A stretch of 62,206 nt of DNA, counting the filler, from Nemertoderma westbladi (Eukaryota > Animalia > Xenacoelomorpha), in the NCBI GenBank assembly GCA_032718475.1. It is 3 parts of 3 records of this genome, joined end to end, with 100 filler letters (N's around TTAATTAATTAA, not from the genome) between each part and the next. Parts side by side here need not be neighbours in the genome. Positions count along the whole stretch, not along the records: positions 52,970 to 62,206 come from JAUCBJ010002278.1; 2 more parts are not named here. One strand, given 5' to 3'. Position numbers and translations under genes: made by a program. Every line of letters starts with the position of its first letter. The stretch's first letter is position 1. Below are positions 20,294 to 62,206 of this stretch, piece by piece. A model generated the notes under the pieces. The model did no database searches, had not been told where the DNA came from, and worked only from the letters and a program-made list of their open reading frames with translations.

Positions 20294-20619
20294 CACAGTG
20301 CCACGGTAAATTATAGGTATGTCATGGGAGTAGAAATTAGAAACTTGACTGGTGAACGTGTGAAACACGAAACACTGGAGGCAACCCGAATGCTCCTCTC
20401 TCTTGGCTGTTACCAATAAGGCAGGAAGGGGCCACACTAACTCCACCAGCTATCTGGTGGCTTGGGAATAGCACAGCTGCATTTAGTGCCACAGGAGATG
20501 TATCGTGATGGCCAGTGTCTGAATTTTAATGATGGAGTTATTATTATTTAGCTTTGGTTACTTTCAGTGACACGTTTGACACTGTAGTACATCATTCCTA
20601 CTACTTACTACCTACCTAC

Positions 20620-36460: not shown

Positions 36461-36689
36461 ACGTACCACTACACTTACATACTTGTATAGAGCATTAGAG
36501 TGATCCAAACCAATAAAAATAAATAAAAATAGCCCAAACATAAATAATTACTAAATCGCGAATGACTTTGTCAAATTCGAAAATTTCAAAAAATTTGGTG
36601 CTGGAGACCAAATTTTGAGGTGGCACCCACATCGAAAAGTAGAAATCCAATTGCAACGGCGTTTTTTGTCCCTCCTGGATCCCGTCACA

Positions 36690-37659
36690 TGCTAGGACTA
36701 TAGTCAAGAGATGGTGTGTAATCTTTGTTTGTATGACTTGTAGAGCCATCCATCTCGATATGGTGAACGATTTATCTACCAACAGCTTTCTATTAAGCTT
36801 ACGACGACAGATCGCTCGCTTTGGCACTAGTAACACGATGAGATCTGATAAGGGAACAAACTTCATTGGTGCTAACAATGAAATCAAAGCTTACGTCAAA
36901 GATTGGAACCAAAGACAGGTGGACGACCAACTACGAGTAACAGCGTCTAGTTGGACCTTCAACGCCGCCGACGCCCCTTGGTGGGGAGGAAGTTGGGAGA
37001 GATTAATAAGAAGTGTGAAGACGGCATTTCATTTTATAGTGCCTTGCCGCGCTTATCTCACCGACGAACTTTTGCGGACGTTAATGGAAGAAATCACCGC
37101 CTATCTCAACGAGAGACCGCTTATGCCAGTCTCATCGAGTCCCGATTCCCTGGAGGCGCTAACACCCGCGCACTTCCTACTGAAGAAACCTGTAGCCATG
37201 CTCCCACAATCGGAAATCACAGACGGAGACGAATACTGCCGACAAACTTGGCAACTCATGCAGTTGTTATCCCGTCGTTTCGCTGACCATTTCGAAAAAC
37301 ATTATCTGCCCATGCTACAACTTCGAACTAAGTGGTTTGCGCAGCAAGAAAACGTCAGCGCTGGAGACATGGTTCTTATTGTGGATGTAGATCTTCCACG
37401 TAAGCGGTGGCAGACAGGTCGTATAATCGAGACTCACATCTCGGATGACGGTTTGGTGCGATCGGTAGAACTCGTCGTCATGCGACGTAACTTCAAGAAA
37501 CCGGGAATTGTCTTCGAGACGCAGCAGCTCAATCGCCCAGTTGGTCGCTTATGTTTACTGGAAAGAGACAGAGAACTCTCCGGAAACTATGGGAGACAAG
37601 ATACTCTTCCCATGACCACCTCCCTAATCCAACAAACATCTAGGGACTCCCCAACTTAA
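36690..37659 (+). CDS. BEL/Pao integrase core and C-terminal (DUF5641-like) region, 5'-truncated
   Basis: KRWCVIFVCMTCRAIHLD, RSDKGTNFIG, APWWGGSWERLIRSVK, LNERPL, ALTPAHFL, DGLVRSV. Confidence 0.95.
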
Positions 37660-39303
37660 CAACGGCTGGAGTGGGTGTGTGACCATATTATTTTATATTT
37701 GTATTTGTTTTATTCTTTTATATTTATGTATGTATTATTATGTAATTTTATTTTAATCGTTTTATTTAATTTTATTTAGTAACATGTTATTTTAGCGAAC
37801 ATTTAGTAGATTAGTGCAATATATCCGCATTTATTACGTAATTACTTGTATTATATATTTAGTGCGACGGCGAAAAAAATAATTATTTTTCTCCTTCCTT
37901 ACTGTCCGTATTACATTATAAATACATGACTACAGTAAGATGAAATGTACGTACTTATTAAAGTACAATAAAGCCACTACTATATTCAAGTATTATTGGT
38001 AGGCAGAGTATTAGGAATGCAAAGTTCAGATCCTCGTGTCTCGGCTAAACCAAGCTCTGGGTAGACCTTGGAAACGACTTGCCTCTTCATACTGACATTG
38101 CTTCGTGCTATATTGCTCTCATACCGTATATTAAATAATACATATAGTAGCGTGATGTCCCTTTAACAGTAGCGTATAACGCAAAATAAATCTGTTAAAC
38201 CCTTTGACCATCTGTGATTCTAGTCGATTAAGATATTGCGGCACCCACCGATATACTTGAAAGACAAAATTCTAGAATCAGTGGTTAACGTCCCCAGACA
38301 AGTTCTGGAATAAACTGGTGCCCATCCTAAATATTAATTATTAATATTTACAAAAATCTGTCAAATATCAGATCCTTTAAAATTCTAGTCGATTAAGATA
38401 TCGTAGCACTTACCGATACTCTTAAAAGGACCAAATTCCTCGAACCAAGGATCCCAGTCCCCAGACACGTTCTGGAATAAAATTGTGTCTATTTAACATT
38501 AAATAATAAAATTTACGGGAATAAATTTAAATTCAGATATTTCAATGAATTTAATAAATTGTCATTTTATACAATTTATAACATTCCCAAAATTCCATTA
38601 ATTAATAGATCATGGGAGCGGAGATTCACTCTATTAAGTGTATTTGTGTACGAGAATCTCCAATGTATAGTCAATAGCCGATAAAATTCATAGAATCATG
38701 TATAAAGGGGATATTGACCATTAAAGAATTACTATTAAATAGCATCCCAGATCTGTATGCATGAGAGTTACCCTAATTCTACCGCTAGCTTTCCATAATG
38801 TCACCATGGCAACAACCACGCTAGAATTAGAAGTGAGTTAAAAGAACAATAGAAGGCATGCCCCATTGAATAGCATAGGGAATAAATAGCACACTGCTAG
38901 TATCCAAGGATACATAATAAATACAGTGACATTCTGGAAGGTACTGACTAATGGACAAATGGCCCGAATGTATGCAGTTTGTTGCAGTTGTGTTGAATTT
39001 GTGCGTTTGTAGGTGAATGTTACTACTAAGGTGTGTTTACAGTAGCGAGTCGCAATTGTGAAAGTAACCCTAACTCTCCAAGAAGAACCTGCAGTACATC
39101 TAAGCCTTTGGGACGGACAGTGAAGTGACTTGTGCAGGTTATCGTTGTCGTTGTGTAGCTACATCGTTGGCGAAAGCACAGCGACGACGGTACATCGGCG
39201 CTGAGGATCTTACACTGTCCGAGGGCAAAAGAGGGGTAGGCAGCGACGCCCACTAGCCTAATATATATAAACTCATTATAATATTGATAAACTCATAGCA
39301 GAT

Positions 39304-40515
39304 ATGACTGAGTTGATAGAAGATGATCTTGGTATCAGGGAGCGATATACTCTACCTTTACAAGCGTTTGTCGATAGCTTGATACGCGGCGACGCTGGTC
39401 CAACTACTACGGAGGATGATGGTCGTTATATCGAACCGCCAATGTCCCCGGAGCAACTTACGCGTGAATTGGATTATAGAAAGTTCACCGCTCGTTATAC
39501 GCATCGTAATGGTACGTATATGGACTTCCTAACTACTGGCCACCCTATCGATTTACACGATACAGACGATGTGGATACCGAAAGGGAAATGGTTTTATTT
39601 AAATATCATACCCAGCGGAATCGGAACGATAAGCCAAGAATAGAACACGAGAACTCTATTCGAAACAGACTCGAAAGAGAAGACGTTGAAGAGCCGGATA
39701 AACGCAACGACTTCAACGATTATCTGGAATTCTTGAGAGAAACATACCTCAATATTGCCAGTCAACAAAATCTCGAAACTCGATATCCTCAAGGTATACA
39801 TCATGATCCTATGATAGAACTCAAACGACTCTATTTCACTATGATGTATCTTACCGCCGATCGACCGCTACCTGATGTCCCAGATAGCTTCGAACAGATG
39901 GAGGAATATTGTAAAACTGGAGAACGATCACCCGCGTTTCCTCTGCAGGACATGCGTCTTTGGTATTACTGCGACGAATGCCCTAGACCCAATCAGCAAA
40001 CGGAAAGACATAAACATCCGCGGAGACGTTGCGCTAAACACAGTTTTACACGATATACTTATGGGAGTTTCGAGCGAAACCTGTTCGACGTGTCCCCTGC
40101 GGTCGCTCGACTCAAGCGATCCTTGAACAAACCGATGATCAGAGTTCCGGAATACTCGGTCAGACCTCCGCATTCCTTAGTTAGACCTCAAACTCTTGAC
40201 CCTAATAGTATCACGGATCCTCACGAACTGTACTCACTGTTCAAAGATCTAGTGTTACCCGAACAGTTGATCGGTGGCACTCCAGTAGTAGGCTCACGGG
40301 ACATTCGCCAGCCCTACCTAGCTGGATTGGGACGTGGTCATCTAATATCGCCGTTTAACCCATACAACCGTCCCGGCTTCACCTCTATCCAACCCGTTAC
40401 GGAAGTCGAAGAGAGCGTCGTACGAAACGCATTAGAAGCTATTCGGCAGAAAATCGGAAAGGGAACGTACGATTGTTTGGAGAAGCGTAAATTGCAGCAA
40501 CAAGTCCAACGGTGA
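39304..40515 (+). CDS. Retrotransposon cargo ORF-A, unknown function
   Basis: 403-aa open frame with ATG after CATAGCAG. No family recognised; contains CDEC...H.H...C..H. Confidence 0.7.
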   Translation: MTELIEDDLGIRERYTLPLQAFVDSLIRGDAGPTTTEDDGRYIEPPMSPEQLTRELDYRKFTARYTHRNGTYMDFLTTGHPIDLHDTDDVDTEREMVLFKYHTQRNRNDKPRIEHENSIRNRLEREDVEEPDKRNDFNDYLEFLRETYLNIASQQNLETRYPQGIHHDPMIELKRLYFTMMYLTADRPLPDVPDSFEQMEEYCKTGERSPAFPLQDMRLWYYCDECPRPNQQTERHKHPRRRCAKHSFTRYTYGSFERNLFDVSPAVARLKRSLNKPMIRVPEYSVRPPHSLVRPQTLDPNSITDPHELYSLFKDLVLPEQLIGGTPVVGSRDIRQPYLAGLGRGHLISPFNPYNRPGFTSIQPVTEVEESVVRNALEAIRQKIGKGTYDCLEKRKLQQQVQR

Positions 40516-41972
40516 AGGAATTAGCTTTACCCCAGTTCGATAGAGAAATACAAAATCTCGAGGAGGACATCGAACGTGGACGAACCTACTCTTTACAAGA
40601 GTTTCTAGATGAGCGTCTACAACAACAAGCGGAGGAGAATCAGCTCAAGGAGAGACATATAGAACTGGATGAGAGAGAAGAAGCGGCTTTAGCTCAACCC
40701 GAAGCGCAAATCCTTATGACGGATCTCTACTCTAAAACCATTCTTCATCCCTCGATGGTTCCCCATTTCGGAGACAAACTTTTTGCGACGGCACAACCCC
40801 AACCGGTTGATATCAACCTAAGATCTCGAGATCTTATCGCCGACGCTCCTATGTTGCAGCGTCCGCCCATCGAATCCGCTCGTGTCGATGGTATACTCGT
40901 TGAACCTCCGGACAATAGAGCAGATCTTGTCCGTCGCATGGTACACGATGTAAACATACGCGCTAGACCTTCACGGGACTCGTTTTACGGGATCAAAGAT
41001 CACCCTTATTACGTCAATCTAAAACAATATTACATGGTAAAACCGGAAGATCCTACACATAGTCTGAAGTTTCTACCGCTAATAAATCCTCTCGATCTTG
41101 TCGAACTCGAACAACTGCAGAAACATCTGGATCAGTTAGTTAAAGTAAACTCATTTCGAAAACCATATAATGTTTCCAGAATAGAGAAGGAAACCATACC
41201 TCCGTATAATCTTGATGGATTCATCAAAACTCGATTAGTACACTGGAATCTTGACGTGTTATTCGAGGAGGAAAGAATACAACGATATGGAGATGTGGAA
41301 ACATATACTACACAATACTTAAAGTACAGAGATCTACCTAATGCTAGCGAATGCGCTACCTTGTGGCATCCTGTGGGAATGACACTCGAAAACGCCACAA
41401 AGGAGTGGATCGAAACTCTTAACGTTATCGAGATGTATGGAGTTGTCACTTACGATAACGAAGGTAGCGTTCCGGTTGGAGAACTTGGAACTACGCGGAT
41501 GATACATATACGAGGACTCGCTGGTTCTACCCACGTATTTACTCGAGCGTGTTCCGACGTTATTGATTATTCTTTTGAAACTCTTACTGAGACACAAAAG
41601 AAACTCCGACATGGACAATTTGAACTTGCGCAGCGTTACGTCACCGACACCGAGCGCAAACCGGCCATGGGTATCGATGGATCGATGTTACCCCAACCCG
41701 TGCTCGAGATGTTGTTTAACGAAAGAATCCTTAAAATCGGCTCAGCTGTTTATGGAGACCTACAGAACGACTTTCGGAATATGGAGAACATTCCATACCC
41801 CTTCGTTGATACTCAGCTGATTGCTCCTTGGGCAGAAGGCCGAGGTTTCTTCCGCACTATGTATGCCAATACACCCAGCGGAATTACTAAAGTACAACGA
41901 ACCTCCATCGGACATCTTGCCTTTCAAGAATACGGATGGAATTTCAAGGCGCTTTCTGACTCCGTTCCGTAA
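40512..41972 (+). CDS. Cargo ORF-B: putative DnaQ-like/DEDD 3'-5' exonuclease (WRN/EXD/RNase D-like)
   Basis: ExoI-like VVTYDNEG (41454-41462), RMIHIRG..G..HVF, LPQPVLEMLFNERILKIGSAVYGD (ExoII-like), FVDTQLIA, TSIGHLA..YG..FK. An ExoIII YxxxD is not clearly found. Confidence 0.65.
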   Translation: MKELALPQFDREIQNLEEDIERGRTYSLQEFLDERLQQQAEENQLKERHIELDEREEAALAQPEAQILMTDLYSKTILHPSMVPHFGDKLFATAQPQPVDINLRSRDLIADAPMLQRPPIESARVDGILVEPPDNRADLVRRMVHDVNIRARPSRDSFYGIKDHPYYVNLKQYYMVKPEDPTHSLKFLPLINPLDLVELEQLQKHLDQLVKVNSFRKPYNVSRIEKETIPPYNLDGFIKTRLVHWNLDVLFEEERIQRYGDVETYTTQYLKYRDLPNASECATLWHPVGMTLENATKEWIETLNVIEMYGVVTYDNEGSVPVGELGTTRMIHIRGLAGSTHVFTRACSDVIDYSFETLTETQKKLRHGQFELAQRYVTDTERKPAMGIDGSMLPQPVLEMLFNERILKIGSAVYGDLQNDFRNMENIPYPFVDTQLIAPWAEGRGFFRTMYANTPSGITKVQRTSIGHLAFQEYGWNFKALSDSVP

Positions 41973-43308
41973 CGTTGATAGTCAGTTCAAGGACCGCGCT
42001 CTGACCAAACTCAGCCTGAGAGACTCAGCGGCGGAGAAGCTAAACAGCGCGGGATTTGCCCTTTTTCAGGACATTTGTATACAGAACTTACATTCATCTG
42101 TTATACAAAGACCCCGAATACCCACGGGTTATTCTGTCGTCGAAGTTCAGACAGTGGGTCCGCTTGCGGAGACAGCCGCACCTACCTCAGCTATGCAATT
42201 GGAAGACGAACCAATATGCTTAGAAGCTGAAGCGATTCAGCCTACAGCGCCCCGGAGCAGCGATAACGACTACGTCTTAGAGTGGTATCAAGGTCCACAA
42301 TGTCTCACCGCATACGATTATCGACACGCTAACTATGTTTCTCGAAAACGCTGTCGATTATGCGCATCGAGAGACCATTTCACCCCTATGGACTCAGACG
42401 TACCCTGCTCCTATTTCCACGAACAACCGATGATGGAGATATATTGTGCGTATTGCAGACTTAATAACTCTCATATTTTTGCAGTCTGCCCCCAATTTAT
42501 GACTCAATGCCACCACTGTCAACTTAAAGGACATGCCAGTTATAATTGCCCCTTTAATCACGATTTAGAGAGCGTAGATGAAATGATTACCCTGCGCTAC
42601 ATCCGAGCTTGGGAAGCTAACGCGGATTTACATTGTGAGTCCCGTCATCGATACTACCCTGGACGCTCTTACGAGGGAGTTTACGCGTTCCATCCTTATT
42701 TATTAGCGTCTGTGAAACAAAAAACACGCATACCGAGTTACGAGCTAATGAAGCGTGTTGGTGAGTGTATTTCCACTAAATTTGTTCGAAGATACCTTAG
42801 GAACGTCAATCCTAACGATATTACTTCATACCATTTGATCAATTATATCCGTCAAGACCCTGAGTATGGCGATTTATTTATCAACTCGCACCCTGAGTTA
42901 CAGGAAGTATCTCGACGGCCCTACGAATATCGAGCCCGAGAGCACGAGCTGGAAAGAACTATTAAACCAAGGAAGTTTTTCACCACTCACGGTCCGCCTA
43001 CCGCCGTTGTCCAGACGACCCGTAAAGGACCAGTAGGAGCTGCTGTCCTAAGACGCGCCCTAAAGGCCGTTAGACCTCGCTCCGCTGATACACCGGCGGA
43101 TACACCGATCGCAATCCGAAACCTTCTGATGCAATTGTATTGCACCCTTCACCCAGGAGTTACAGCCCTCCTAGTAAAGTGGCTCGCCCCAAAGAGAAAA
43201 GGACTCTTGCTAGCCTCAAAAAACTGCGTAAACGCCGTCCGCGTAAGAAAGACTAACTGTTTAGAGTATTTTTATATTTTAGAAACTGTGATTTGTTATA
43301 TTTTATAG
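41821..43308 (+). CDS. Cargo ORF-C: CCHC zinc-knuckle protein, probably the frameshifted continuation of ORF-B
   Basis: CRLCASRDH...C, CAYCRLNNSHIFAVC and CHHCQLKGHASYNC at ~42350-42550. Confidence 0.7.
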   Translation: MLLGQKAEVSSALCMPIHPAELLKYNEPPSDILPFKNTDGISRRFLTPFRNVDSQFKDRALTKLSLRDSAAEKLNSAGFALFQDICIQNLHSSVIQRPRIPTGYSVVEVQTVGPLAETAAPTSAMQLEDEPICLEAEAIQPTAPRSSDNDYVLEWYQGPQCLTAYDYRHANYVSRKRCRLCASRDHFTPMDSDVPCSYFHEQPMMEIYCAYCRLNNSHIFAVCPQFMTQCHHCQLKGHASYNCPFNHDLESVDEMITLRYIRAWEANADLHCESRHRYYPGRSYEGVYAFHPYLLASVKQKTRIPSYELMKRVGECISTKFVRRYLRNVNPNDITSYHLINYIRQDPEYGDLFINSHPELQEVSRRPYEYRAREHELERTIKPRKFFTTHGPPTAVVQTTRKGPVGAAVLRRALKAVRPRSADTPADTPIAIRNLLMQLYCTLHPGVTALLVKWLAPKRKGLLLASKNCVNAVRVRKTNCLEYFYILETVICYIL

Positions 43309-44766: not shown

Positions 44767-45244
44767 TACGCCAAGTTAGTCCACACCCATGTACCGTACT
44801 GCCGTAACCGTACTGATGTATCATCGATGTCATAAACTCATACAGGGTGCCGCGTGCCGGTGCGGAGTGGAGGTGTAATCAGGTAGGAAATAACTCATTC
44901 TGTACTTTTCGCCTGGCCTGTGTCGCTGTGTCTGTATGTGCTTAACCTACATCGATACATGTGCTTATCCAATGAGCGCTGGGGCGCGGTATGTCTGTAA
45001 TCTGTATGTACTCTGGTACTGACTGACTGACAAGGTATCAGGAGAGGAGAGGCCCAGTACTCATCAGTCATCACTGGTCATCACTTCAGCACTTACTCTC
45101 TATATTACAGTATTACTTCTGTACTTACAGTATTTCTGTATTTATCAGGCCTATATAAACAGATATATAAAGTTCAACGTTGTGTTTGTGTAGGCTAAGT
45201 TAAATACTGAATTATTACAATGCGATTGGTATTTTATTATTATT

Positions 45245-45673
45245 ATGGCCGTTTGCGTTGCCGTTATTGCTAAAGAGAACTACCCGCTGTACATCCGTAC
45301 TGTTCCGGTAAGCAACTCCGACCCTCTGAAACTCCGATATATGGTGCACACATCCCTGGACGTGGTGGAGGAAAAAATATCCGCCTCCGGAAAAAATCCT
45401 ACTGAATTCCGAGAGCTGTACCTAGGTTTACTTTATCCCACTGAGGATTATAAAGTCTACGGTTACGTGACTAACAGTAAAGTAAAGTTTGTAATCGTGG
45501 TGGATTCTTCGAACACTTTATTACGGGATAATGATATAAAGTCTATGTTTAAAAAGCTCCACGTTGCGTATATTGATATGGTCTGTAACCCTTTTTATAC
45601 TCCTGGAGAAACTATTAGCTCTAATCCTTTCGATTCTACAGTTGAAAGTATGATGGCTCAAGGAATGTTTTAA
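45245..45673 (+). CDS. TRAPPC2L: Trafficking protein particle complex subunit 2-like, intronless CDS
   Basis: [63 protein letters not shown]. Confidence 0.97.
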
Positions 45674-45775
45674 TTTACATTATTCGTGAAATAATTAATA
45701 TAATTTTTGTATTTGACTTCAGGGCCATAGGCCTATGCTAATAAGTTGAAAGGAGTCTACTGATTAATATCTTAT

Positions 45776-46651
45776 ATGAGTGACATTGCCGTGGAATATG
45801 TTGCCGGAGCTGTAGCTGGTACGGTCTCTGGTTTGGTTTCCTTCCCGCTAGACACCCTCAAGGTGCGACTACAGACGCAGCCCAGCAAACAATACCGCAA
45901 TATATTCCATGCGGTAGTAAAGATAGCCAGACAGGAAGGCCCTTCGGCTTACTGGAAGGGTCTCCCTTTACCTTTACTAGCGGCCTGTCTGCTAGACGGG
46001 ATTACCATCCTGACTTACGAGCGATCTCTAGCAATTATCTTCGCCTCCAAAGAGACCCCGTTATCCAGCGCTGTTTGTGGCGCAGTCGCTGCACTGGTGG
46101 ACAGCACTTACTCAGTACCGGTGGAGCTTCTCAAAATACAAGGACAGACAGCAGGAGTGGGCCGTCCCACTATTGGTTTCCTAGCGACCACAGTCTCACA
46201 ACTACGAGCTGACCTTCTTTCTTCCTCGACAATCAACTCTTTCTACTTCGGGTGGAGAATTTCCTTGATTCGCGATATCCCGCTCTACAGTTTAACCTTC
46301 CTTTCCTACTACGCGATTCGCAATCGCTTCCCGGCGGAGCTTCGCAACAACACCGGGGTTCTTCTAGCGGCCAGCAGCTCGGCTACGCTGCTAGCCGGCA
46401 CGATCTGTTACCCGTTGGACGTCGCTAAAACCCGCTACCAATCGCGGTGGAGAGGGCCTTACAGTCGCGGTTTGGTGCGTGAGTGTCTCCTAGAGGCGTT
46501 ACTGGACAGCCGCCACCGGTACCGCGGTCTAACAACCGCCCTGCTAGCAGACACCCCTTATATGGCCTTGTATCTGGTGTTACAAACCAAAGTGCTGCAC
46601 TGGTTCGGACACAGATGCGCCCCGGAAAAAGTTAATAATTCCATTAATTAA
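45776..46651 (+). CDS. Mitochondrial carrier (SLC25 family, resembling SLC25A29/45/48), intronless
   Basis: Three carrier signatures PLDTLKVRLQ, PVELLKIQGQ, PLDVAKTRYQ; 291 aa. Confidence 0.92.
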   Translation: MSDIAVEYVAGAVAGTVSGLVSFPLDTLKVRLQTQPSKQYRNIFHAVVKIARQEGPSAYWKGLPLPLLAACLLDGITILTYERSLAIIFASKETPLSSAVCGAVAALVDSTYSVPVELLKIQGQTAGVGRPTIGFLATTVSQLRADLLSSSTINSFYFGWRISLIRDIPLYSLTFLSYYAIRNRFPAELRNNTGVLLAASSSATLLAGTICYPLDVAKTRYQSRWRGPYSRGLVRECLLEALLDSRHRYRGLTTALLADTPYMALYLVLQTKVLHWFGHRCAPEKVNNSIN

Positions 46652-46757
46652 TTGCAATAAATAGATATTTATTTAACTAATATTATAAATTATAATAAAT
46701 AAATAAATATAATAAATATATATTATTGTCTGGACAATAATAACTCTATTGTTTCCA

Positions 46758-47531
46758 ATGGATTCGCTTAGCGAATCATTTCCATGGGAATTTTCCGTTA
46801 TTTTCCGCGTTTTATTTCCCGACGGCACAGAATGCGATCGGTTGATTGTATCCGCAGCCGTTCCTACCGGTTACTCTAGCGACGATAGCCACAATCTCGT
46901 TGTCGCTAGGACACCGACCTCGTTTCGCTACCGCGCTCGGGTGCACCCCCAAGCGGCGGCTGCCGTTATCACCCTGGCCTCGAACTCGCCGCTTTTCGCG
47001 TCGCGTTTACTCCGGAATCGACCCGGGTCGGATAAACCGGTTAGACTTTCGTTACATATTGACGCCGCCTTCCGATTGGCTACTCATTGCGATATCCGAT
47101 GGGGTGCGAAGATTCTCCCGCTAACCAACTGTCGGATGGAGTTAGAGAACTCGCTAGCCTGGTTGTCTACGCTAGGGGGCGCTCACTCGAGTCTGGGGGA
47201 GTCTGACGCCGGACATTCCGTACAAGCGGGTCGCCTCGCGCGGCAGCAGTTCCAACTAGCGGCCAGACTCGGGGACCTTATCCTACAGGCTTACTGTCGC
47301 GTCTACCTCGCCATCAGTCTAGCGCAGCGCGGCCATCTAACGAGGGCATTGCGAATCGCACACAGAGAGTTCCGGTTCGCGGATACGCCGCAAGGGGGCT
47401 GCGACACGAGACTCAAGGCTATGTGTCTGCACGTTGTACACCGGTGTAAGGTGAACCAGAGCAGTGTCGCAGTAATTAATAATAATCCTTTAATTAATAT
47501 TAATGATATAAACATTGAACAGTTTAGATAG
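46758..47531 (+). CDS. Conserved uncharacterised protein, DUF4807 / F58A4.6-like, intronless
   Basis: ELENSLAWLSTLGGAHSSLG...AGRLARQQ..LA.RLGD....AYCRVYLAISLAQRG; first ATG at 46758. Confidence 0.82.
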   Translation: MDSLSESFPWEFSVIFRVLFPDGTECDRLIVSAAVPTGYSSDDSHNLVVARTPTSFRYRARVHPQAAAAVITLASNSPLFASRLLRNRPGSDKPVRLSLHIDAAFRLATHCDIRWGAKILPLTNCRMELENSLAWLSTLGGAHSSLGESDAGHSVQAGRLARQQFQLAARLGDLILQAYCRVYLAISLAQRGHLTRALRIAHREFRFADTPQGGCDTRLKAMCLHVVHRCKVNQSSVAVINNNPLININDINIEQFR

Positions 47532-47990
47532 TATTATAGTTATATCTGCTGCTACTTTGTGAATCCTCATTAAATTAAAACAAACCAATTATAATGTCAT
47601 GTTTATTTTGTTATGAAGAAATACTTTATCTGAAAATCTGCATTTTCCCAATTAAAATGGTTCGAAACAGGGGGGGGGGGGGGGGGGGGTGGGGTGTCTA
47701 AATTGACGTAAATGAAAAAGGCCTATCATTTAATACAATTTGTGTTTCGCGAAGCGGCGTTTATTTAAATTTATTTACACTCCACTTAGCTGTCATTTCG
47801 AAGGATTTCGCGAAAGCACAATTTAAGATTTTCAGTCCATTAATTTAAAATACATTTAAGGGGTTCCGTTTAACTTTATCTCGTGTCATTTAGCAAATAC
47901 TTTCTGTACGTATGTTAGAAAAACATATATTGTTCTGTTTCCATGGTAGTACACGTTTTCAAGAAATAAGTTTTGATCAAGTTAAAGTTA

Positions 47991-49008
47991 GGGTATAACT
48001 TTTCGCCGTATCCGTATTCGTATGCATTTGCCGTATCCGTATGTACATACGCGTATGTGCCGTATGTAATGGATTCCTATGGAGAATAATCAGTATGTGA
48101 TTTTAGAGATTAGGCATTGCGGACCAGTAAGAAGTGCACATCACACTTGCAGACTGAAGACAGGTAGGCCTACTTAAAGCTATGATTTAAAGAGTGTGGC
48201 TGCCGCTACCTTTTGTCAAATAAACAATGCAGGACAGGTCCAGGATGAGTGACAGCCGGTGTCCGCCAGCCCCGGGATGCGCCAGCAGTGCAGTACCTAT
48301 TAACCAGTTAACTCTTCTTGACGCCGCTTGGAAAACTAACCAACCGTGATTTATTTTTGAACTGTTTTTCCACCAACCTGGCTATAGAATGTTGTTGCTT
48401 GCTACAGTATATGGCACTAACATAGTATAGACTGATAGAAGCGGCAATGAGAATGCTAAGGGAATAAACATTCGCACAGATATTGAAAACCGTCGTGTCA
48501 GTCTGTCCTTCTTTGTGAATTTATTAACATATAATATACCTTTACTTTCGCTGTTTCGGGGCCAGTATTTAGTTAACCATAGCAGGCCCTAGCAGCCAAG
48601 TGCCAACAAGACCAACCTACCGGTGTGCCAGTTAGTCAAACCACGTGTCAGCGAGTGCAACCGGGTGCCAGTAATTAATCTAAGTCCAACCGGGCGTCTA
48701 GTGTCAGTTAGTACAATAAAACAAGCGCTGTGGCGCATCCCGGGACTGAAGGACATCATCTGTCACTCATCCTGGACCTACAATGATTTATTTGCCATTA
48801 GGTAGCGGCAGCCGCACTCTTTAAATCATATCGCTTTTAAGTAGGCCTACCTGTCTTCAGTCTGCATGTGTGTTGTGCACTTCTTACTGGTCCGCAATGC
48901 CTAATCTTTAAAATCACATACGGATTATTCTCCATAGGAATCCATTACATACGCGTATGTGCATACGGATACGGCAAATGCATACGGATACGGCGAAAAG
49001 TTATACCC
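47991..49008. mobile_element. Non-autonomous Mutator-like element with ~300-bp TIRs
   Basis: GGGTATAACTTTTCGCCGTATCCG...CGGATACGGCGAAAAGTTATACCC; 9-bp TSD TTAAAGTTA at 47982-47990 and 49009-49017. Confidence 0.88.
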
Positions 49009-49324
49009 TTAAAGTTATGGCTGGCGGTTCTTATAGAAACATTATCATATTATTTAATGAGAAGGCCATAACATAACTTATCGTCGAACAGTTGCTAAGG
49101 AATGATGAATGAATGCCCACATGCCGAATAATTATTGTGTTAATGAGATTAAATTGCTAAACAATTATAATAAATTATAAAAAAACAATATTTACAAATT
49201 ACGTCATTATTTATAACATAATTTGAATTCATTGTTTGAACAATAATAATAACTACTGTATTTATTTTACTTTATACTTTATTTCACGTTGTACTTATTA
49301 TGACTTATGTACCAATGCTCTTCC

Positions 49325-50490: not shown

Positions 50491-50991
50491 TTCGCCCATT
50501 AATTATAATGTATTACTTTTCATAATTAATAAGTAATTATTATATTCGAAAATGGAAATAATACTGTTAATTCCTTAGGTAGAACATCAGATTACTGCAT
50601 CTGATACTCAGATACTGCAGCTAAAAATCTACTACAAGAATCACTATAATAAATAGGATTTTAAAACATCTCAAGTTGTAATCTTATAAAGTGAAAGATT
50701 ATAAGACTGCAGCCTACAGGTAGTAATAGTGTGTAAATAATAGTAATTTATCATTCCACGATCCAGCGACTACTTACTAGCAGTATTGGCAGTTCCCGTC
50801 CCTTAGATTAAAGAGAATAAGGAAAAGAAAGAAAATAAAATAAAGATAACAGACGGGACGAGAATATTACTAACTGTATTATGCTTAGCAGTTCGGGTCT
50901 CACCACCACTGACCACTGCTGCACTGTACCGTATCCCCTTTATCCTGTAGCTTACTAAATTCAGAAATTAGGTATTCAGGCCTATCCTATC

Positions 50992-52620
50992 ATGGATGAT
51001 TCTGGCAACGGGATGAGCTGCAGGGAGCCGCCAATCAGCACAGAGATTGAAACCTGTCCGGGTCAGCAACCATCCAGCAGCAATGACGACTCACTTTCCC
51101 ACGTCTCCCACCCTCCCGGTATCCCTCCCCCCGCCTGTGCCGACGACACCTCGTCACAAGAACGTAGGTTTATCGCCCAGTCCATCCTCTACTACTCCAA
51201 GGGTTCCCCCTGCCACTCGGTGGCTTCCAACCCGCCCATCGTCTCGGAAACCGACGTAGACATCTCGTTGGTGGACTCCGTTAGCGAGTACGGTTGCAAC
51301 CTGGACGCGTGCAGTCGGCCGAACAACACGCGGGGCGGCTCGGTGGACCATCCGAGCGGCCAGTTGGAACTAACGGTAAACGCGATCACAGGTAGTCGGG
51401 TGAACACAAACCCGCTGGGGTACACCGGGGTGGTTGAGGATACCGAGGAAGACAGGGATGACTGCTGTGGGATAAACACCAAGGTAGGCCTGCATAATGA
51501 TTGTATGAGAACCGACGACGCCGGTGATACAGACGATGATACCGAATTCGATGAGGCATTCGAATCGAGTCGACGGGCGGAAACTGTCCGGTCTTCGGAG
51601 TTTCCGCGAGAGGGTAACCATGGTGATGGGGTCCCTGGGGACGACCGGGGTCGCTTTGCGAAGGAGCCGTCGTCGCCAGATTCCGTTACGCCGTCGCCTG
51701 GCAACCCGCTATCCATAGACGCGTTGCTAAGCGATCCCGACGAGTTTCCTAGCGACCGGGACGCGTTGCTTAGCGACGCGGACCCCATACCTCGCGACCC
51801 CGCCCCGTTGCTAACCTTCGCTGCGCTCGTTCTGTCGTGGCGCTCGCTGAATCTCCGCGAGTTCCGCCCGCTGATCCGCGCTAAGCGACGCAGTAACGTC
51901 CGGGGCGTCCGTCGGTTGTTCCGTCTCTACACGCCACTAAACCCGTCGCTACGCAACGACCGCGGCTACCTCTACGCGATGTCGCTCTGTCAATTCGAGA
52001 ACTCCAATAAAACGCACTGCGCCACACTGCAGACAATATACAGACACATCGTAGGGGCCGCTCGCACCGGTACCGACACAGACTGCCCCCGGTTCGGCGC
52101 TCATTGGGAGCTCATCGGGTTCCAAGGCAACGACCCGGCCACGGACCTCCGCGGAACCGGTATGCTGGGCCTCGTCCACCTCCACTATCTCGTGTCGACC
52201 CCGCGACTCGCCGCGCTCGGCCGCGATGTCCACGCGCTCTCCCGCCATCCCGTCAACGGATTCCCCTTCGCGGCCCTCGGTATCAACCTGACCAAACTCG
52301 TTCTCGACGTGACGCGAGAGAAGCGACTCAACGCTGCGTTCAACCGTAGTCGTGACGTTATCGCCGCGAGCTGCGAGTTCTACGTCGCTCTCTACCTCCG
52401 ACTCTACCGGGTGTGGCGCGGCGGTAAGTCCATTCTCGATACTCCCTTCGTCCTCAGGGAAATTGAGAACGCGGCTCGAGCCAAACCCGCTCGGTTGCTC
52501 ACTGAACTCGAGGAGTTTCTCGGCGACGACCAACAATTCCGTGACGGACCGAGACGAGCGGATAAAAGTGAGATCGTCTTTAGTAATATTGATGCATTCC
52601 CGTCTAATGTAGAAATATAA
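50992..52620 (+). CDS. ELMOD3: ELMO domain-containing protein 3, intronless, with long acidic disordered N-terminus
   Basis: LQTIYRHI, CPRFGAHWELIGFQGNDPATDLRGTGMLGL, FPFAALGINLT. Confidence 0.9.
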   Translation: MDDSGNGMSCREPPISTEIETCPGQQPSSSNDDSLSHVSHPPGIPPPACADDTSSQERRFIAQSILYYSKGSPCHSVASNPPIVSETDVDISLVDSVSEYGCNLDACSRPNNTRGGSVDHPSGQLELTVNAITGSRVNTNPLGYTGVVEDTEEDRDDCCGINTKVGLHNDCMRTDDAGDTDDDTEFDEAFESSRRAETVRSSEFPREGNHGDGVPGDDRGRFAKEPSSPDSVTPSPGNPLSIDALLSDPDEFPSDRDALLSDADPIPRDPAPLLTFAALVLSWRSLNLREFRPLIRAKRRSNVRGVRRLFRLYTPLNPSLRNDRGYLYAMSLCQFENSNKTHCATLQTIYRHIVGAARTGTDTDCPRFGAHWELIGFQGNDPATDLRGTGMLGLVHLHYLVSTPRLAALGRDVHALSRHPVNGFPFAALGINLTKLVLDVTREKRLNAAFNRSRDVIAASCEFYVALYLRLYRVWRGGKSILDTPFVLREIENAARAKPARLLTELEEFLGDDQQFRDGPRRADKSEIVFSNIDAFPSNVEI

Positions 52621-55277: not shown

Positions 55278-55855
55278 GCGGCCAATCACAACCATCCCCT
55301 GATGATTCAGACATGCTCACTTCCCACGATGATGTAACACCCAGAAGTATAAGTAATTCCTTCGACCAACCTGGTCCCTCTGGGATTCAACCCCAGGACA
55401 TTGTGAAAATAAGTCGCTCCAATGAGAAGTCATTCCGCTGTGATACTTGTGATAGAGCGTTCCTAAGTAACGGCAACCTAAATAGACACCAACGGATCCA
55501 CACTGTTGAGCGACCTTACCAATGCGACATCTGCTACAAACGTTTCTCTCAACTAAGTACCCTAAAGGCACACAAACGTACGCATAGTGGAGAGAAACCG
55601 TATAACTGCAACCTGTGTGAGAAAAGGTATTCTCGACTAAGTTCCCTAAAGATACACAAACGTACGCACAGTGGAGAGCGACCGTTCTTGTGCGACACAT
55701 GCGGGAAAGGATTTACAGTGAGTGGCAATCTAACGCGCCATAATATATTACATACAGGTGAACGACCGTTTAGTTGCGATGCATGCGGGAAATGTTTCTC
55801 ACACCGACATCAAGTAAAGCACCACAAATGTATCCGCAGTGGGGAGACTCGGTAA
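55278..55855 (+). CDS. C2H2 zinc-finger gene, exon 2 (4 C2H2 fingers + 1 C2HC-like finger)
   Basis: Acceptor TTTCTCTAG at 55277; Kruppel-type linkers TVERP/SGEKP/SGERP/TGERP. Confidence 0.9.
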
Positions 55856-56048
55856 CTGTAATGTTTGTAAGAAACGTTTATCTACTTCCGGTGATATTGT
55901 TGGACACAGATAAACTAAAATTCTGTATGTAGTTAGTTCTAGATTATGTTGAATAAACTTTAAAAACAGTTGAATTATCAGAAGAAATTTAAAGAACCAA
56001 ATATTTACATTTTAACTTTTTGTTATGTGCAAATGATTTATCGCGAAG

Positions 56049-56675
56049 TGTGACGGGATCCCCGAGTTGGCGAGGGAATCCCGACCGGTGTGTTTTTCTT
56101 TCAGCCATCGTACGCGTCGCCGCATCCGCTGGCTGCTGAATGGCTTGTGGTATCTGAAACGCCGGAGGCTGATAGAATAACTGAGTTTTAGTGGCGGTTG
56201 TTTGTAATGTCAGAATACAATATTAGCACAGTCAGAATACAATAATAGCACGGTTAATGACGACGGTCTAAACTGTCTTGCTTCTACACTCTACACAAAC
56301 CAACTGAACAACAGGTAATAAAGGCATCGGTTATATTACTAACACATATGGAATATTCCTACTCACTACTTTGCCTGGCCAATGGATGCACCTCAATCAG
56401 ATGGTAACCGGCCCTACCATTGGCTAATCTATAATCTATCGTTCCCTCTCTTGGCATTGGCACTCCCTGTTCTCTGATGCCCCCGTGCTAGCCTCCTTAG
56501 TCCCCCTGAGATGGCTTATGGCCTCTTATCTCTCCTTGTGGGTGGCAATGTATATGTAATATGTGTGTAATATGTGTAAATGTATATTGCTAATGTCACC
56601 TAGCCAACTATAATTGGTAAAAAGCCACTTTCCCCATTTTCTGCTGGGTAGTGCAGTGAATTGGATCCGCTTACA
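56049..56675 (-). mobile_element. Putative 3' LTR of the minus-strand BEL/Pao element
   Basis: On minus, a G-run + AG polypurine tract (56676-56688) is directly followed by TGTAAGCGG...; candidate end ...CCCGTCACA at 56049 (less certain). Confidence 0.6.
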
Positions 56676-57189
56676 CTCCCCCCCCCCCATGCTCTCTTCC
56701 TGGTGAGAAGATAGCATCAACCTTAAGTGCGCTCCAATTCTGCTGGAATCCAATCTAGTACTGGATTTGGGGTGGAATTCTCTTCTCAGGGCCAGCTTTC
56801 CAGGCTGGCCCCCCTGGTTCTGCTACCCATCCTTGGTACATCTGCGAGCTAAGCTGTACCACGGCATCTGGCGTCTCTATTTTAAACTCTCTCCTCACAC
56901 AATTTATTTCGGACTCTGTCGTCCGTTCTCCTCACTCACTAGTCCCATAGGACTCATCCTCCTCTCTGCTCGCCCCCCACACTTGGATCTCGCACTCTTC
57001 ACTTTTCCCCCTTAACTCTCGTACCTCCCCTTCCATACTTCCCCAATACTCAACCCCCTTTGCTCTCACTCTCCATATGCTCCTGTCAGGCTCCCACATT
57101 CTCAATCGTGCGGCCGCACTTCAGAAATGGGATCCGTCTAATGTCTCGCCAGTTAGTCCCCAATCCCAGTAGCTAATTGAAAAAGGTTA

Positions 57190-57805
57190 TACCTGACTAT
57201 AGTACGTATATTATATATTTTTCTATACGACATATCTTAATTCACCCCCTTTCAGAAGTGATATAAACCGTCTCTCCCACATCTCGCCCCCCACTTGAGT
57301 GAATTCGCAAGTCCCGCCTGGTATTCCTCTCAAAACTTGTTCCACTCCATCGGCTTGTGGCACACGAGTCCCATCAACTGACCCATCGCCACGGCTCCGT
57401 ATTGTCCTGTGTCATCCACCAATCCTAATCCATCCGGTTTCGTCACAGCCATGTAGACTACCTGCATGTCCAGAAGATTCGGGGTGCCCGGTCCAATAAT
57501 CCTCTCCTTGTTGCCGCGTATCGCCGATCCAATCTCGATCGTAGTCTTTGACCTTCCTTACTAGCTTCTGCATCGCATCCTGTGGGCGGTTCAACTTTGG
57601 CCCGCTCTTCTTACCATAGGTCGCTAGGTCAAACAGAAAAATATCTCCATACAGCGCCACTAAATGCAGCAATATAGTTCTGCTCGACCCTCCTTACCCC
57701 TTTCTTGTCCCACCGTCATCCTCTACTGTCCCCACGTCATCCAGGACCATATATCCGCCCCTCTCTGCGGAATACAACAAACTTCTTCACTAGCTTCTCC
57801 GCCAT
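57190..57805 (-). pseudogene. Decayed DEDD-exonuclease-like cargo ORF homologous to ORF-B
   Basis: Manual translation across stops and frameshifts: GYMVLDDVGTV...RTILLHLVALYGDIFLFD...TIEIGSAIRGN...LLDMQVVY...MGLVCHKPM, collinear with the ORF-B motifs. Confidence 0.6.
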
Positions 57806-58649
57806 CACGATTCTCCTCTCTCACCAGACTGGTGGTGCCTTAGAAAAGCTCAGTAGGGTAAGGGATAACTAAGTATGGTCTTAATTAGTTTAAATCAGTG
57901 ATGGCCTACCTCCTATCTGCGTTCTGCCAATGTTTCGTACAAATATTCCCCTTTATGTGCCAATTTACCCCTGATTTTTCAGTGCTGTGTTCCTCAACTA
58001 ACATGCTATTACTATACCTACTAGTCAATTACTACGTAAGTAATTCATCACTACTTATCTACAGAGAAGACTAGCTACAATTTTCTTAGTCTTGTACTAG
58101 CTTCCTACCATACAACTCGGGCTCTGTAACAATGCTCTAACTCTGCACTACGGGCTATGCGCTACAGTAGTCTAGTTCGTGCGGCCTACACGGTCTATTC
58201 CACTATGGCTACATACCCCCTTCAACTCCTCATGTGGCGCCCTCAGTGCCCACTATAGTACGTACTACGTACTATTATTGGTTCCATTGACCCGGCATTT
58301 GGTATTTATTACGTACATTGGCACATTGTGCCCATCAGACGTATGCAGCATATACCCTTCTAATCCTCACTATGATACCATGTACCCTTCTACTGATATT
58401 GGTCCTATTGACCCGGCATTTGGTGCGTATGTAAACTAGGTACGTTGGTACATTCGTACCCATCCGACATACGTAATTATAACCACCTACACCTAAATAT
58501 TATGTACATTGGTACGTCCGTACCCGTCAGACGTACATAATGTCTACCTAAAACTAATTATTAATGTACCTTGGTACTATATTTATATTTTTTATTTTAT
58601 TATTTTTATTTTGTGTGTGGGAAGGGCGTCTCGCCCTCATTCCCACCCC

Positions 58650-61600
58650 CTCAGTCCAATATATTGGACGACTCAAATAATTGTGGCGCTCCCTCCAATA
58701 GGCAACACTTTCCTACCGCCCTGCTCCTGTAGGTCTTCCTATCTTTGGCCCCTATCTCTCCTCTGATTCTCACTTCCACGGATCTGATCTTTCCGTCCTT
58801 GCCGGGGTAGCATTAAACTACTCTCGCGAGCCTCCAGTGATTGTTGATAATCGTGTCATCTGTGATGATTATCAAGTCACCCTTCCTAAGCTCCCTCTGA
58901 TTGTTCCTCCATTTGCTCCTTTTGTGCAGTGTTGGAAGGTACTCTTGGATCCACCTTTTCCAATACTCTGCACCTATCGCCTTAGCCACCTTCCAGCTCT
59001 GACGCGAATTTATTGTCTGGGTCGATGTTTCGCATGTCGATCGTCGTCTGGTCTCTCCATTAACTAGGTGTGCCTGTGTTAGGACGTCCAGCGATTCTGG
59101 ATCGTCGTTCTCGGGATACAGCGGGCAGCTGTTGATAATCCCCTCGCACTTCGCCAGCACTGTCCTGAATACATCCTCGGTCACCATGTGATTATTCATG
59201 AGTTTGGTCATCAGCTGCTTAGAGCTTCGACGAGGCACTCTACGCAGCCCAGCGTATGTGGGGGGTATGGTGTCCTCCTTTCCCATCTAATCAGGTGCTT
59301 CCTCATCGCTGCCTTAACATCTTCATCCTCCAAGATGTCAAGGGCCTCTGCTAACTCGTTTTCTGCACCAACAAAGTTAGTCCCATTGTCTGAGTATAGT
59401 ACTTCGACCATCCCTCCTCTGCGGGTCACGAACCTCTCCAATGCATTAATAAATGCCGAAGCCGTAGCGTCCTGAGCCAGTTCTATCCCCACGGCCCTCG
59501 TATTATTGCAGACGAAGATAATGCCGTAACGCTTCTCCGTATGCTGCATCACCTTGATCTTGATTAGCCCAAACATGTCCATGCCGCAGTGTGTGAACGG
59601 TGGGTCGAGATGGCGCCATTGCGACTAACAGGGTGAGCCTGTTAGTCTGCAATGGCGCCATCTCCTGCATGGCCCTCTCCTTCTTCGTCCGTCGGCATGT
59701 CTGGCATTGCCCCACTACCGCCTTCACCATCTTCCTAAGCTGGATTACCCAGAATCTCTTCCGAATCTCGGATAGGGTCTGGTTGGTACCCCCGTGTAAT
59801 ATGGACTTATGGGCGTCCCATATGATCTGGTGGATTATCGGTGACTATGTTAGGGATTATTATTGGCTTCGGTGGAATTGGGCACTGATGTTGTTGACCA
59901 CCCTGGATTTCATGACCACGATTCCATCCTTATCCAGTTGCGGTGACAGCGTGTTGATTTTGCTGTCCTGACGAAGGTGCTGCTGTTTCCTAATGCGGTC
60001 TACTTCATCTCCGTATCCCTTCCTTTGTTCGTATCGTATCACGGCTTTAGCCACCCCTTCCAGATCGATGGTGGGTTTTATTTTTCTGCCTGTACCAGCT
60101 CCCCTAAGGAATCCTCCGTAGGCCCTCAGATATGCCTCTAGCTTCTTTGTCTTATACCAGCTGGAGTTTTAACTGAGCAACCTATCAGTTGTATTATTGC
60201 ACGAGTCAATTGTCTTAGATCGTGGTGGTGCCTCCTTAATCTCCCTCATTAGCTGTCTAAATATTTCTTCCCCCTCCGTTTTGTTTCCCTCATCCTCTAC
60301 TATCACTTCCTCTGCACTTGGATCTACCTTACTCCTCGGTGGCCGCTTTGACCTGTCGTTGAGGAAGTGCGGGCCTTGCTGCCACCACTCCTGCTTTCTC
60401 GAGAAAGTGTGGCGTAGTACGCCCCTCGATAGCAAGTCCGCCGGATTGTCATCAGTTGGGCAGAAGTTCCACTTGTCAAAGTCCGTTGTTGCTCTTATCT
60501 CATCCACTCAGTTCGCTATTAATATGGGATAACGCGTTTTTTCGTTATGCAACCATCCCAATACTGCCATGGAATCTGTCTAGTAGTAGTGTCTGTACTA
60601 TACTTGGTATCGTATCCACCAAGTACGCTGTTGCTCTCACCCTAGTCTCACAGTCGTTAGCTCTTGTTTTGGCACCGATGCTTAATCCAGTGGCATCGAC
60701 CTCGCTTTACTGAACGCAAGCCTGGGCTTATGAGTCCCCTTCCACTGAACCTGCTTACTTATGTCTGTCGGGACCTCCACATTCCAGTTGTCTTTGATCT
60801 TATAGACCTTCTTAAGTATCTGCAATGCAATGTACTAACAATGGGGATGCTAGTCCTAGCGGATCGTAAATCCTCGCTATGTATGACACATAGCCTCGCT
60901 TGGTATGGATCCCGGCACCCTCCTGACTCAGTTGATATTCCAACTCATCCGTCTCCCGGTTCCATACGATCCCTAGTGCCTTCTGTTGTGATTCTACCCT
61001 CTTGTCCGCCATGATTTGTTCCTTCACCATCATAGGTTTATCTAGTTTTACTCCGGTTGTTTATCCTCTATGGCCTCCATGAATTCTTTGGAGTTCGACT
61101 GGAACTTCGTCAAGTTGAATCCTGACTTCTTCAGGATGTCGCGAACTTCGCGCCATGTGTCGAGGATTTCCTTAACTGAGTTTCCTGAACCCATTCCATC
61201 ATCCATGTAGAACCCGCGTCGAATCATATCGATCGCCTTCTCGCTATACTCCCCCTCTTTCCCCTCCACTGTGTCTCTTACGGCTGTGGTCGTGGTGAAT
61301 GAGGACGACTTGGCCCCCATATTCTGCACTACCATCTTCTACATCGGTATCTCCGACAGGTTCTTCGTCGCCGTTGTACACAGGAAGTGGCAAATAATAA
61401 GTCCTGTCGGTGTCCGGCTCGTCTACTGTTAGCTCCATGGCCCATCCCCGATCCACATACTTCTTGATGGTTCTATGTATATACTCGTTCTTCTCCACGC
61501 TCCGCCTAAGCGTTTGCTTTAATTTTCGGAGTCTCGTCATGACCATCCTTTTGTTGTTTGGTAGGGGCACCTTCAGCTCCTTCCATACCATCCCTATGGT

Positions 61601-62206
61601 ATATTGCCCCCCTTCATACTTCATTGATCTCCTGACGCTCTCCTGCGCCTGCTTGTCCTCTACCGAGGTTCCTACCCCGGTAGCTACGTTCCGACGGGAA
61701 GTTTATCTTCGATCCCTTCTTCTACCTTCCTCCTCGTTCCAGTACACTCTGTACACCTCACCCGGTGTGTGATATATTTCGCCAGGCTGTGTTTCTCCGG
61801 GGCGACAGCAATCTCCCGAAGTACAACCCCATCGGCCCTCCCTCTCTACCTTAACTATCGACGGTTCACTGTCCATCCTATCTCACGTCTCTGGTTGCCC
61901 GTAACAACATTTCCTCCGTTCCTCCTCGCGTCCTCCAGTTTTGGCGCTATATCCACGTTCATGAGTCTCGTATCGACCTCCCAGATGAACTCTACTGTTC
62001 TCCTTCCGTCTTCTGAGTAGGCTCGACATTTTCTCTTTTGGCTGCTTACGGCACCAACGTTCCTCCCTCTACCTGGTTGTATGGCCTCGGGGATATTCAT
62101 TGCCTTTCTACTCTCCTCTGTCGTTGGGAGCCCCGGTTTACTTAACTCACCACGCGCGTTTCCCGCCGACGCCTGCGGGGAATTTATTGCCCCCCTCATA
62201 CACTCA
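58650..62206 (-). mobile_element. Degenerate BEL/Pao pol (RT, RNase H, integrase) with many frameshifts and stops
   Basis: FYMDD, IYDPLG, DNPADLLSRG, CQTC, KRYGIIFVC, SDNGTNFVG, YWKRWIQEYLP in separate frames. Confidence 0.92.

What the first reader, a model, noticed from the sequence alone, without database searches (positions are those of the whole stretch)
57190..57805. A second, separate BEL/Pao element hides a decayed homologue of the same exonuclease cargo
Seen: on minus, between integrase (~58650) and PPT/LTR (56688/56675), cross-frame translation aligns with ORF-B in order. GYMVLDDVGTV matches GVVTYDNEGSV (GTG is one base from GAG=E). RTILLHLVALYGDIFLF matches TTRMIHIRGLAGSTHVF. IEIGSAIRGN matches LKIGSAVYGD (AAC is one base from GAC=D). 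LLDMQVV matches FVDTQLI. The two elements lie on different contigs and have dissimilar LTRs and integrases. Inference: the cargo is an old, inherited module of a BEL/Pao lineage rather than a one-off capture.
Basis: partly seen in the sequence, partly recalled or inferred. Interest (0 to 1): 0.82.

Follow-up and report, generated by a model that had tools for sequence, protein, structure and literature searches.

The report
Dead exonuclease-like cargo in BEL retrotransposon
A broken copy of a many-copy BEL/Pao jumping gene in an animal genome carries, after its integrase, the remains of an extra gene whose breaks are mostly not shared by its sister copies; that gene likely has an RNA-trimming exonuclease fold and is only faintly like the exonuclease cargo of a second element nearby, so separate pick-ups are at least as likely as one old inherited module.

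Summary
The motifs are present, in order, at the stated places. tblastn finds nothing and local frameshift-aware alignment scores at shuffle level. Independent evidence makes the region a real accessory ORF of a multicopy BEL/Pao family: at both internal stops most other copies differ from this one, at the frameshift about half do, and variation among copies leans to third codon positions. ORF-B is RNase D-like. The element-2 ORF is not significant by itself against any exonuclease profile (best 4 of 200 shuffles), so I give its fold about 65%. 'Old inherited BEL module' is not shown: the integrases are 27% identical and the cargo layouts differ. DEDDy cargo is published for rotifer LTR elements (PMC5408684), and this scan noted it in Gypsy elements of other genomes. 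I found no BEL/Pao case in print. New variant of a known kind.

The parts
60322..61702 (-). Element 2: decayed BEL/Pao pol, RT and RNase H region in several frames, with stops and frameshifts; 5' part of the element not located in the window
   Evidence: tblastn with the gag-pol of the third BEL element of the window, 28-38% identity, E 2e-16 to 8e-11
58651..59624 (-). Element 2: decayed integrase core and C-terminal DUF5641 domain
   Evidence: Pfam rve E 2.7e-7 (31.2 bits, just under the 32.6 cut-off), DUF5641 E 6e-17; 27-29% identical to the integrase of element 1
57830..58650 (-). Non-coding spacer between integrase and cargo; opens with a purine run plus TG and holds a ~75-nt imperfect tandem duplication
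   Evidence: sequence; self-blastn 58270-58343 vs 58391-58471, 77%; no long ORF
57255..57805 (-). The finding: decayed accessory ORF of about 185 codons, likely DEDDy (RNase D/WRN-like) exonuclease fold. Breaks in this copy: probable frame change near 57790, stop at 57694-57696, frameshift near 57552, stop at 57330-57332. 3' end uncertain.
   Evidence: motif order; end-to-end alignment to ORF-B; other copies differ at the breaks
56690..57240 (-). 3' region between cargo and purine tract; two open stretches of 62 and 58 codons without family match; short parts are far more repeated than the rest of the element
   Evidence: depth peaks at 57157-57210 and 56620-56843
56676..56688 (-). Polypurine tract
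   Evidence: sequence
56000..56675 (-). Putative 3' LTR beginning TG at 56675; end not determined
   Evidence: position after the purine tract; no second copy in the window; no polyadenylation word found
41436..41972 (+). Comparison partner: RNase D-like 3'-5' exonuclease domain at the C-terminus of ORF-B (40491-41972) of element 1; the ExoIII motif is not found inside ORF-B
   Evidence: Atlas PF01612 clusters at 0.93; NCBIfam rnd E 0.0022; own mixed profile E 3e-5, best of 2464 six-frame segments; alignments
36643..37659 (+). Integrase of element 1 (5' truncated), upstream of spacer and ORFs A, B, C
   Evidence: DUF5641 E 2.8e-20

Best explanation
This is one dead copy of a third gene carried after the integrase by a many-copy BEL/Pao retrotransposon family; the gene likely encodes a small DEDDy (RNase D/WRN-like) exonuclease-fold protein and was likely acquired separately from the larger ORF-B cargo, from a pool of exonuclease genes that retroelements share. 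Shown: position between integrase and purine tract; many related copies; this copy's stops and frameshift are not shared by most or about half of the other copies. Inferred: the fold (about 65%). Inferred mechanism: the ORF would be read from a subgenomic or spliced RNA, since an 0.8-kb non-coding spacer precedes it, and the protein would bind or trim RNA 3' ends, most likely small silencing RNAs or the element's own RNA, and so help the element persist. No step of that mechanism was tested. This copy lacks the second ExoI acid and the ExoII acid and could not be active.
For: Multicopy and linked: 691, 557 and 524 contig pieces at 80-99% identity lie on 57130-57930 in 3 of 3 runs (2 samples). 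All 30 bins of 55500-62206 are covered in three runs, and one contig joins 58807 (integrase end) to 57302 (cargo). Coding: at the two internal stops 98% and 89% of laid depth differs from the window. The only length differences listed between 57280 and 57789 are two adjacent rows at 57552-57553 (about half of the depth; 13, 5 and 9 contigs in the main row), exactly where the ORF-B alignment changes frame. A 267-nt piece with 48-49 substitutions and no gap occurs in all three runs. Of 11 places variable among copies, 7 are third, 4 first and 0 second codon positions (p 0.039); the 19 near-fixed places split 6/8/5. Fold: motif order and spacing fit ExoI, the two following strands, ExoII and the following 'D' strand. 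Only 3 of 200 shuffled ORF-B queries gave the same single shift in the right frames. One polymerase-exonuclease subfamily aligns in the same register over the first half (profile 4 of 200 shuffles). Separate gain: 27% integrase identity, different cargo layout, precedent of repeated gain (PMC5408684).
Against: No profile of cellular exonucleases detects the element-2 ORF convincingly: 26-44 of 100 shuffles reach the local scores, 10 and 49 of 200 the end-to-end scores, with wrong registers, 51 of 200 for RNase D. Over 112 exonuclease cores, forward beat reversed queries in only 56. No exonuclease hit in Pfam, PHROGs, NCBIfam or PDB for the open pieces; Atlas hits under 0.9 with no exonuclease family. 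ExoIII cannot be placed. The codon test uses 30 of the 40 rows shown, out of 183 places, and drops to p 0.058 at another threshold. Many other copies are also gapped or deleted (tables 5 and 8). That ORF-B ranks near the top of the queries fits common descent equally well.
Confidence: 0.42

Rival explanations
1. One reading: both cargos descend from one ancient capture by a BEL/Pao ancestor and have diverged in step with the elements, element 2 keeping only the nuclease domain.
For: Same position and orientation after the integrase behind a non-coding spacer with a tandem duplication in both elements. ORF-B gives z 2.75, above 58 of 60 cellular cores, and is the query that recovers the frame path confirmed by other copies. 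A shared IGSA-x-x-G word at ExoII. With integrases at 27% identity, a faster-evolving cargo would be expected to fall to this level.
Against: Similarity is marginal. Spacing between the third strand and ExoII differs by about 30 residues, and cargo size by about sevenfold. Nothing shows the two pol genes to be sisters; element 2 is 28-38% identical to a third BEL element as well. Repeated gain is the published pattern (PMC5408684).
Confidence: 0.25
2. The stretch is a real accessory ORF of the family but not an exonuclease; the motif matches are chance, guided by the reader's expectation.
For: Local alignment at shuffle level; no exonuclease profile signal; two of the expected acidic residues absent and ExoIII not placeable; five unrelated window stretches outscore it.
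Against: Four to five motifs in order with workable spacing; the alignment's single frame change coincides with the family's length difference, which chance queries reproduce in 3 of 200 trials.
Confidence: 0.27
3. The stretch is non-coding repeat DNA with no ORF history.
For: Broken in this copy; longest open pieces 93 and 75 codons; many deleted copies.
Against: Both stops and the frameshift fall where other copies differ; scarce length differences at 18% divergence; third-position lean.
Confidence: 0.06

Closest known systems
DEDDy-exonuclease ORF3 of bdelloid rotifer LTR retrotransposons Juno and Vesta, shared with Athena/Terminon retroelements (Rodriguez et al. 2017, PMC5408684; first fifth of the text and passages read; PMC6431247 passages)
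   Same: Extra sense ORF after pol with an RNase D-like DEDDy domain; family-specific; function untested; a Cys/His zinc motif accompanies some of them, as a weak knuckle match in ORF-C does for element 1.
   Different: The hosts there are the rotifer Juno and Vesta clades (Gypsy-like, recalled) and Penelope-like elements, not BEL/Pao. Their catalytic residues are intact; this copy is broken and lacks two expected acids. The rotifer proteins were not available for alignment here.
Belpaoviridae / BEL-Pao LTR retrotransposons (ICTV profile PMC8742986, whole text read; de la Chaux and Wagner 2011, PMC3118150, passages)
   Same: RT-RNase H-integrase order, DUF5641 integrase tail, purine tract before a TG, animal host.
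   Different: [quoted passage not shown]
DEDDy domain in Dada DNA transposons (PMC3706591, passages)
   Same: Transposon-borne DEDDy 3'-5' exonuclease.
   Different: Inserted inside a DDE transposase of a DNA transposon, with all four catalytic residues.
Cellular RNase D / WRN / EXD2 / PolA proofreading domains (PF01612)
   Same: ORF-B matches them around ExoII; the element-2 ORF resembles them by motif order.
   Different: The element-2 ORF does not reach significance against the profiles built here; both cargos lack a recognisable in-frame ExoIII.

Membership tests
BEL/Pao (Belpaoviridae), element 2 | pol with RT, RNase H, integrase in that order, similar to BEL/Pao proteins | tested here: met
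   28-38% identity to a Peptidase_A17/DUF1759-bearing gag-pol, then rve and DUF5641
BEL/Pao (Belpaoviridae), element 2 | polypurine tract upstream of the 3' LTR | tested here: met
   purine run 56688-56676, then TG
BEL/Pao (Belpaoviridae), element 2 | two LTRs of 0.2-1.2 kb flanking the genes | tested here: inconclusive
   no second copy in the window, which ends 0.5 kb beyond the last mapped pol match; no genome held
BEL/Pao (Belpaoviridae), element 2 | gag, protease and a tRNA-Arg/Gly primer-binding site | not testable with these tools
   5' part not located in the window
BEL/Pao (Belpaoviridae), element 2 | placement in a BEL/Pao superfamily by RT tree | not tested
   no reference elements were available as stored sequences
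DEDDy exonuclease (PF01612), element-2 ORF | significant profile match | tested here: not met
   the copy is broken, which lowers sensitivity
DEDDy exonuclease (PF01612), element-2 ORF | ExoI D-x-E | tested here: not met
   first acid present, second position is Val in this copy; state in other copies not shown
DEDDy exonuclease (PF01612), element-2 ORF | ExoII Asp | tested here: not met
   Asn at the aligned position in this copy; state in other copies not shown
DEDDy exonuclease (PF01612), element-2 ORF | ExoIII Y-x3-D | tested here: inconclusive
   not placeable; 3' end of the ORF poorly covered and variable
DEDDy exonuclease (PF01612), element-2 ORF | RNase H-like DEDD fold | not testable with these tools
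   no homologues for an alignment; even ORF-B folded alone gave pLDDT 31
DEDDy exonuclease (PF01612), ORF-B domain | profile or feature match; ExoI D-x-E and ExoII D | tested here: met
   Atlas 0.93, 25 of 30 hits PF01612 but only 148-157 shared features; rnd E 0.0022, far below the equivalog cut-off; E 3e-5; Pfam itself no hit
Rotifer-type retroelement DEDDy ORF3 clade | groups with Juno/Vesta/Athena DEDDy ORFs in a tree | not testable with these tools
   those sequences were not retrieved by any search

The most novel reading that the evidence does not exclude
BEL/Pao retrotransposons of this animal carry their own ancient lineage of DEDDy-fold cargo, kept under selection in at least two families whose integrases are 27% identical. 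In the element-2 family it may be a catalytically dead, RNA-binding decoy (like host Maelstrom/EXD1) that counters small-RNA silencing. The hint: the two missing acidic positions are not among the 40 best-supported differences from other copies, while neighbouring places are.
Probability: 0.15. Interest if true: 0.72.

Novelty: new variant of a known kind. Interest (0 to 1): 0.42.

Why it matters
If the fold is right, DEDDy cargo extends from rotifer LTR and Penelope-like elements to the BEL/Pao superfamily, twice in one genome. That supports the published idea of a pool of exonuclease genes shared among retroelements, and gives a multicopy family in which selection on the cargo can be measured. 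It does not by itself say what the enzyme does, and this copy is dead.

Tried and rejected
No whole genome is held, so the genome-wide count could not be run. Homologue searches were blank: ORF-B residues 290-493 among 271-863-aa proteins (374 candidates, 0 at E 0.01), against 1.84 billion representatives (0 at E 0.001), in metagenome and viral contigs (0 of 145 and 0 of 1 stretches), phages (2 chance hits), PDB sequences (3 glutamine synthetases at E 0.6, rejected); element-1 integrase in metagenomes (0 of 67); a 51-aa open piece of the element-2 ORF (8 candidates, 0 at E 0.1; PDB 0). Single-sequence fold of the ORF-B domain failed (pLDDT 31), so no fold search was run. A profile from 40 short bacterial exonucleases turned out to be an RNase D-like side family, and a 12-sequence WRN-like profile was too narrow; neither found ORF-B. 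A profile-profile run timed out. Atlas on a 93-codon open piece, half of it out of the family frame: hits under 0.9, uninformative. No RNA holder listed. Run X5 covers the cargo barely. Rejected: that the cargo lies inside a long LTR starting at the purine run behind the integrase, since depth over spacer and cargo resembles depth over pol (a weak measure). tblastx between the two cargo regions and blastn between spacers or LTR-like stretches gave only chance hits. Literature: searches found no paper describing an exonuclease in a BEL/Pao element; only open-access texts are covered, and Repbase, GyDB and the supplements of PMC3118150 were not seen.

Full report
Setting. The window is three contigs joined by N spacers. 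The middle contig holds the 3' half of a BEL/Pao element (element 1): integrase 36643-37659 with DUF5641, a 1.6-kb spacer, and three overlapping ORFs A, B and C. The third contig holds element 2 on the minus strand: a decayed pol 28-38% identical to the gag-pol of a further BEL element in the window, an integrase with rve and DUF5641 matches, an 0.8-kb spacer, the stretch in question, 0.55 kb of 3' sequence, a purine run at 56688-56676 and TG at 56675. Neither element shows a second LTR in the window, so the LTR calls rest on position only. No genome is held.

Is ORF-B an exonuclease? Its last 200 residues have no Pfam hit and no homologue in any sequence search. Three weaker lines agree on an RNase D-like DEDDy domain. 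Atlas: 25 of 30 hits are PF01612 clusters at up to 0.93, with shared-feature counts of 148-157, below the level typical of the same family. NCBIfam: ribonuclease D, E 0.0022. A mixed profile built from fetched exonucleases ranks ORF-B first of 2464 six-frame segments at E 3e-5. The signal comes from the ExoII region. No ExoIII lies inside ORF-B, which stops about where it should begin, overlapping ORF-C.

The observation. That is acceptable only because the position was fixed in advance; five unrelated stretches of the window score higher.

Independent evidence from other copies. Public runs of the same organism hold many relatives: 691, 557 and 524 contig pieces lie on 57130-57930 (three runs, two samples, one of which may be the window's source). 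The whole element is covered, and one contig joins the integrase end to the cargo across a deletion. At the two internal stops, 98% and 89% of the laid depth differs from the window. Of 11 listed length differences, the only ones between 57280 and 57789 are two adjacent rows at 57552-57553, in about half of the depth. This is where the ORF-B alignment changes frame; 3 of 200 shuffled queries reproduce that path. Places that vary among the copies fall 4/0/7 on codon positions 1/2/3 in this reading (p 0.039; 6/0/8 and p 0.058 at a looser threshold), while near-fixed differences fall 6/8/5 (30 rows inside the ORF, of 40 shown, of 183). Many copies are themselves gapped. I take the stretch to be a real accessory ORF of about 185 codons, broken in this copy (about 90%).

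Is it an exonuclease? Against: five profiles of cellular enzymes give shuffle-level or borderline scores; forward and reversed queries tie, 56 of 112; open pieces match no exonuclease in Pfam, PHROGs, NCBIfam, PDB or the Atlas; two expected acids are missing and ExoIII is not placeable. For: the order and spacing of motifs, the ORF-B result, and the same register over the first half for one polymerase-exonuclease subfamily (best of 112 queries; 4 of 200 shuffles, post hoc). I put the fold at about 65%. The table is cut, so this only hints that the family may lack those acids.

One module or two pick-ups? ORF-B is near the top of 60 control queries but two exceed it. The integrases are 27% identical; spacers and LTR-like stretches are unrelated; the cargo is 4 kb with a weak zinc-knuckle match in element 1 and a single small domain in element 2. 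Rodriguez et al. report DEDDy ORF3s gained at least twice by rotifer LTR clades and closer to those of Penelope-like elements than to cellular enzymes (PMC5408684, passages). Unchecked notes of this scan describe Rrp6-like cargo, once with a zinc knuckle, in Gypsy elements of other genomes; these are leads only. Separate gain from a shared pool is therefore somewhat more likely than single inheritance; neither is shown.

Mechanism (inferred, untested). A sense ORF behind a non-coding spacer would need a subgenomic or spliced RNA. A DEDDy fold acts on 3' ends of RNA or single-stranded DNA. I favour binding or trimming of small silencing RNAs or of the element's RNA over a role in integration, because ORF-B matches RNase D best and the rotifer paper lists 3'-end processing and silencing as candidate roles. 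No RNA holder was listed, which says nothing on expression.

Novelty. Exonuclease cargo in LTR elements is in print (PMC5408684; mentioned in PMC6338049 and PMC6431247, passages). The ICTV profile of Belpaoviridae (whole text) and the main text of the 2011 BEL/Pao survey (term search) name none, and nine library searches found no BEL/Pao case; subscription papers, Repbase and GyDB were not covered. Verdict: new variant of a known kind, interest 0.42.

Noticed in passing
window 58652-58638 (minus) and 37668-37680 (plus): Both elements have a purine-rich run followed by TG right behind the integrase stop, like a second or relict polypurine tract ahead of the cargo block; in element 2 this spot has far higher summed depth than its surroundings. 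It may mark where the cargo was appended.
   Followed up: partly
window 57157-57210 and 56620-56843: Short stretches behind the cargo and ahead of the purine tract are 10-20 times more deeply covered than the rest of the element, with many loose ends; possibly cis-signals shared with other or non-autonomous families.
   Followed up: no
window 56758-57120 (minus): Two in-frame open stretches of 62 and 58 codons, separated by one stop, between cargo and purine tract; no family match; may be a further decayed ORF.
   Followed up: partly
window 41821-43308 and 39271-40515 (plus): ORF-C has several Cys/His clusters with a weak zinc-knuckle match (E 0.036); ORF-A has no match; A, B and C overlap in different frames and may be one broken or frameshifted gene.
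   Followed up: partly
window 59607-59664: A 58-nt near-perfect palindrome inside the integrase of element 2.
   Followed up: no
window 35721-36489: A cluster of inverted and direct repeats directly upstream of the truncated integrase of element 1.
   Followed up: no
window 26856-32797 (minus): A third BEL/Pao element with an open gag-pol of about 1980 codons, cut by the contig end before its integrase, so any cargo is unseen.
   Followed up: partly
window 45194-47531 and 50959-52620 (plus): Four closely spaced, apparently intronless host-like ORFs; by recalled resemblance a TRAPP subunit, a mitochondrial carrier and an ELMO-domain protein among them (not searched).
   Followed up: no
window 47990-49009: A 1-kb element with long terminal inverted repeats, MITE-like.
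   Followed up: no
window 17294-20316: An 18-bp tandem array of at least 158 copies with long open frames on both strands.
   Followed up: no
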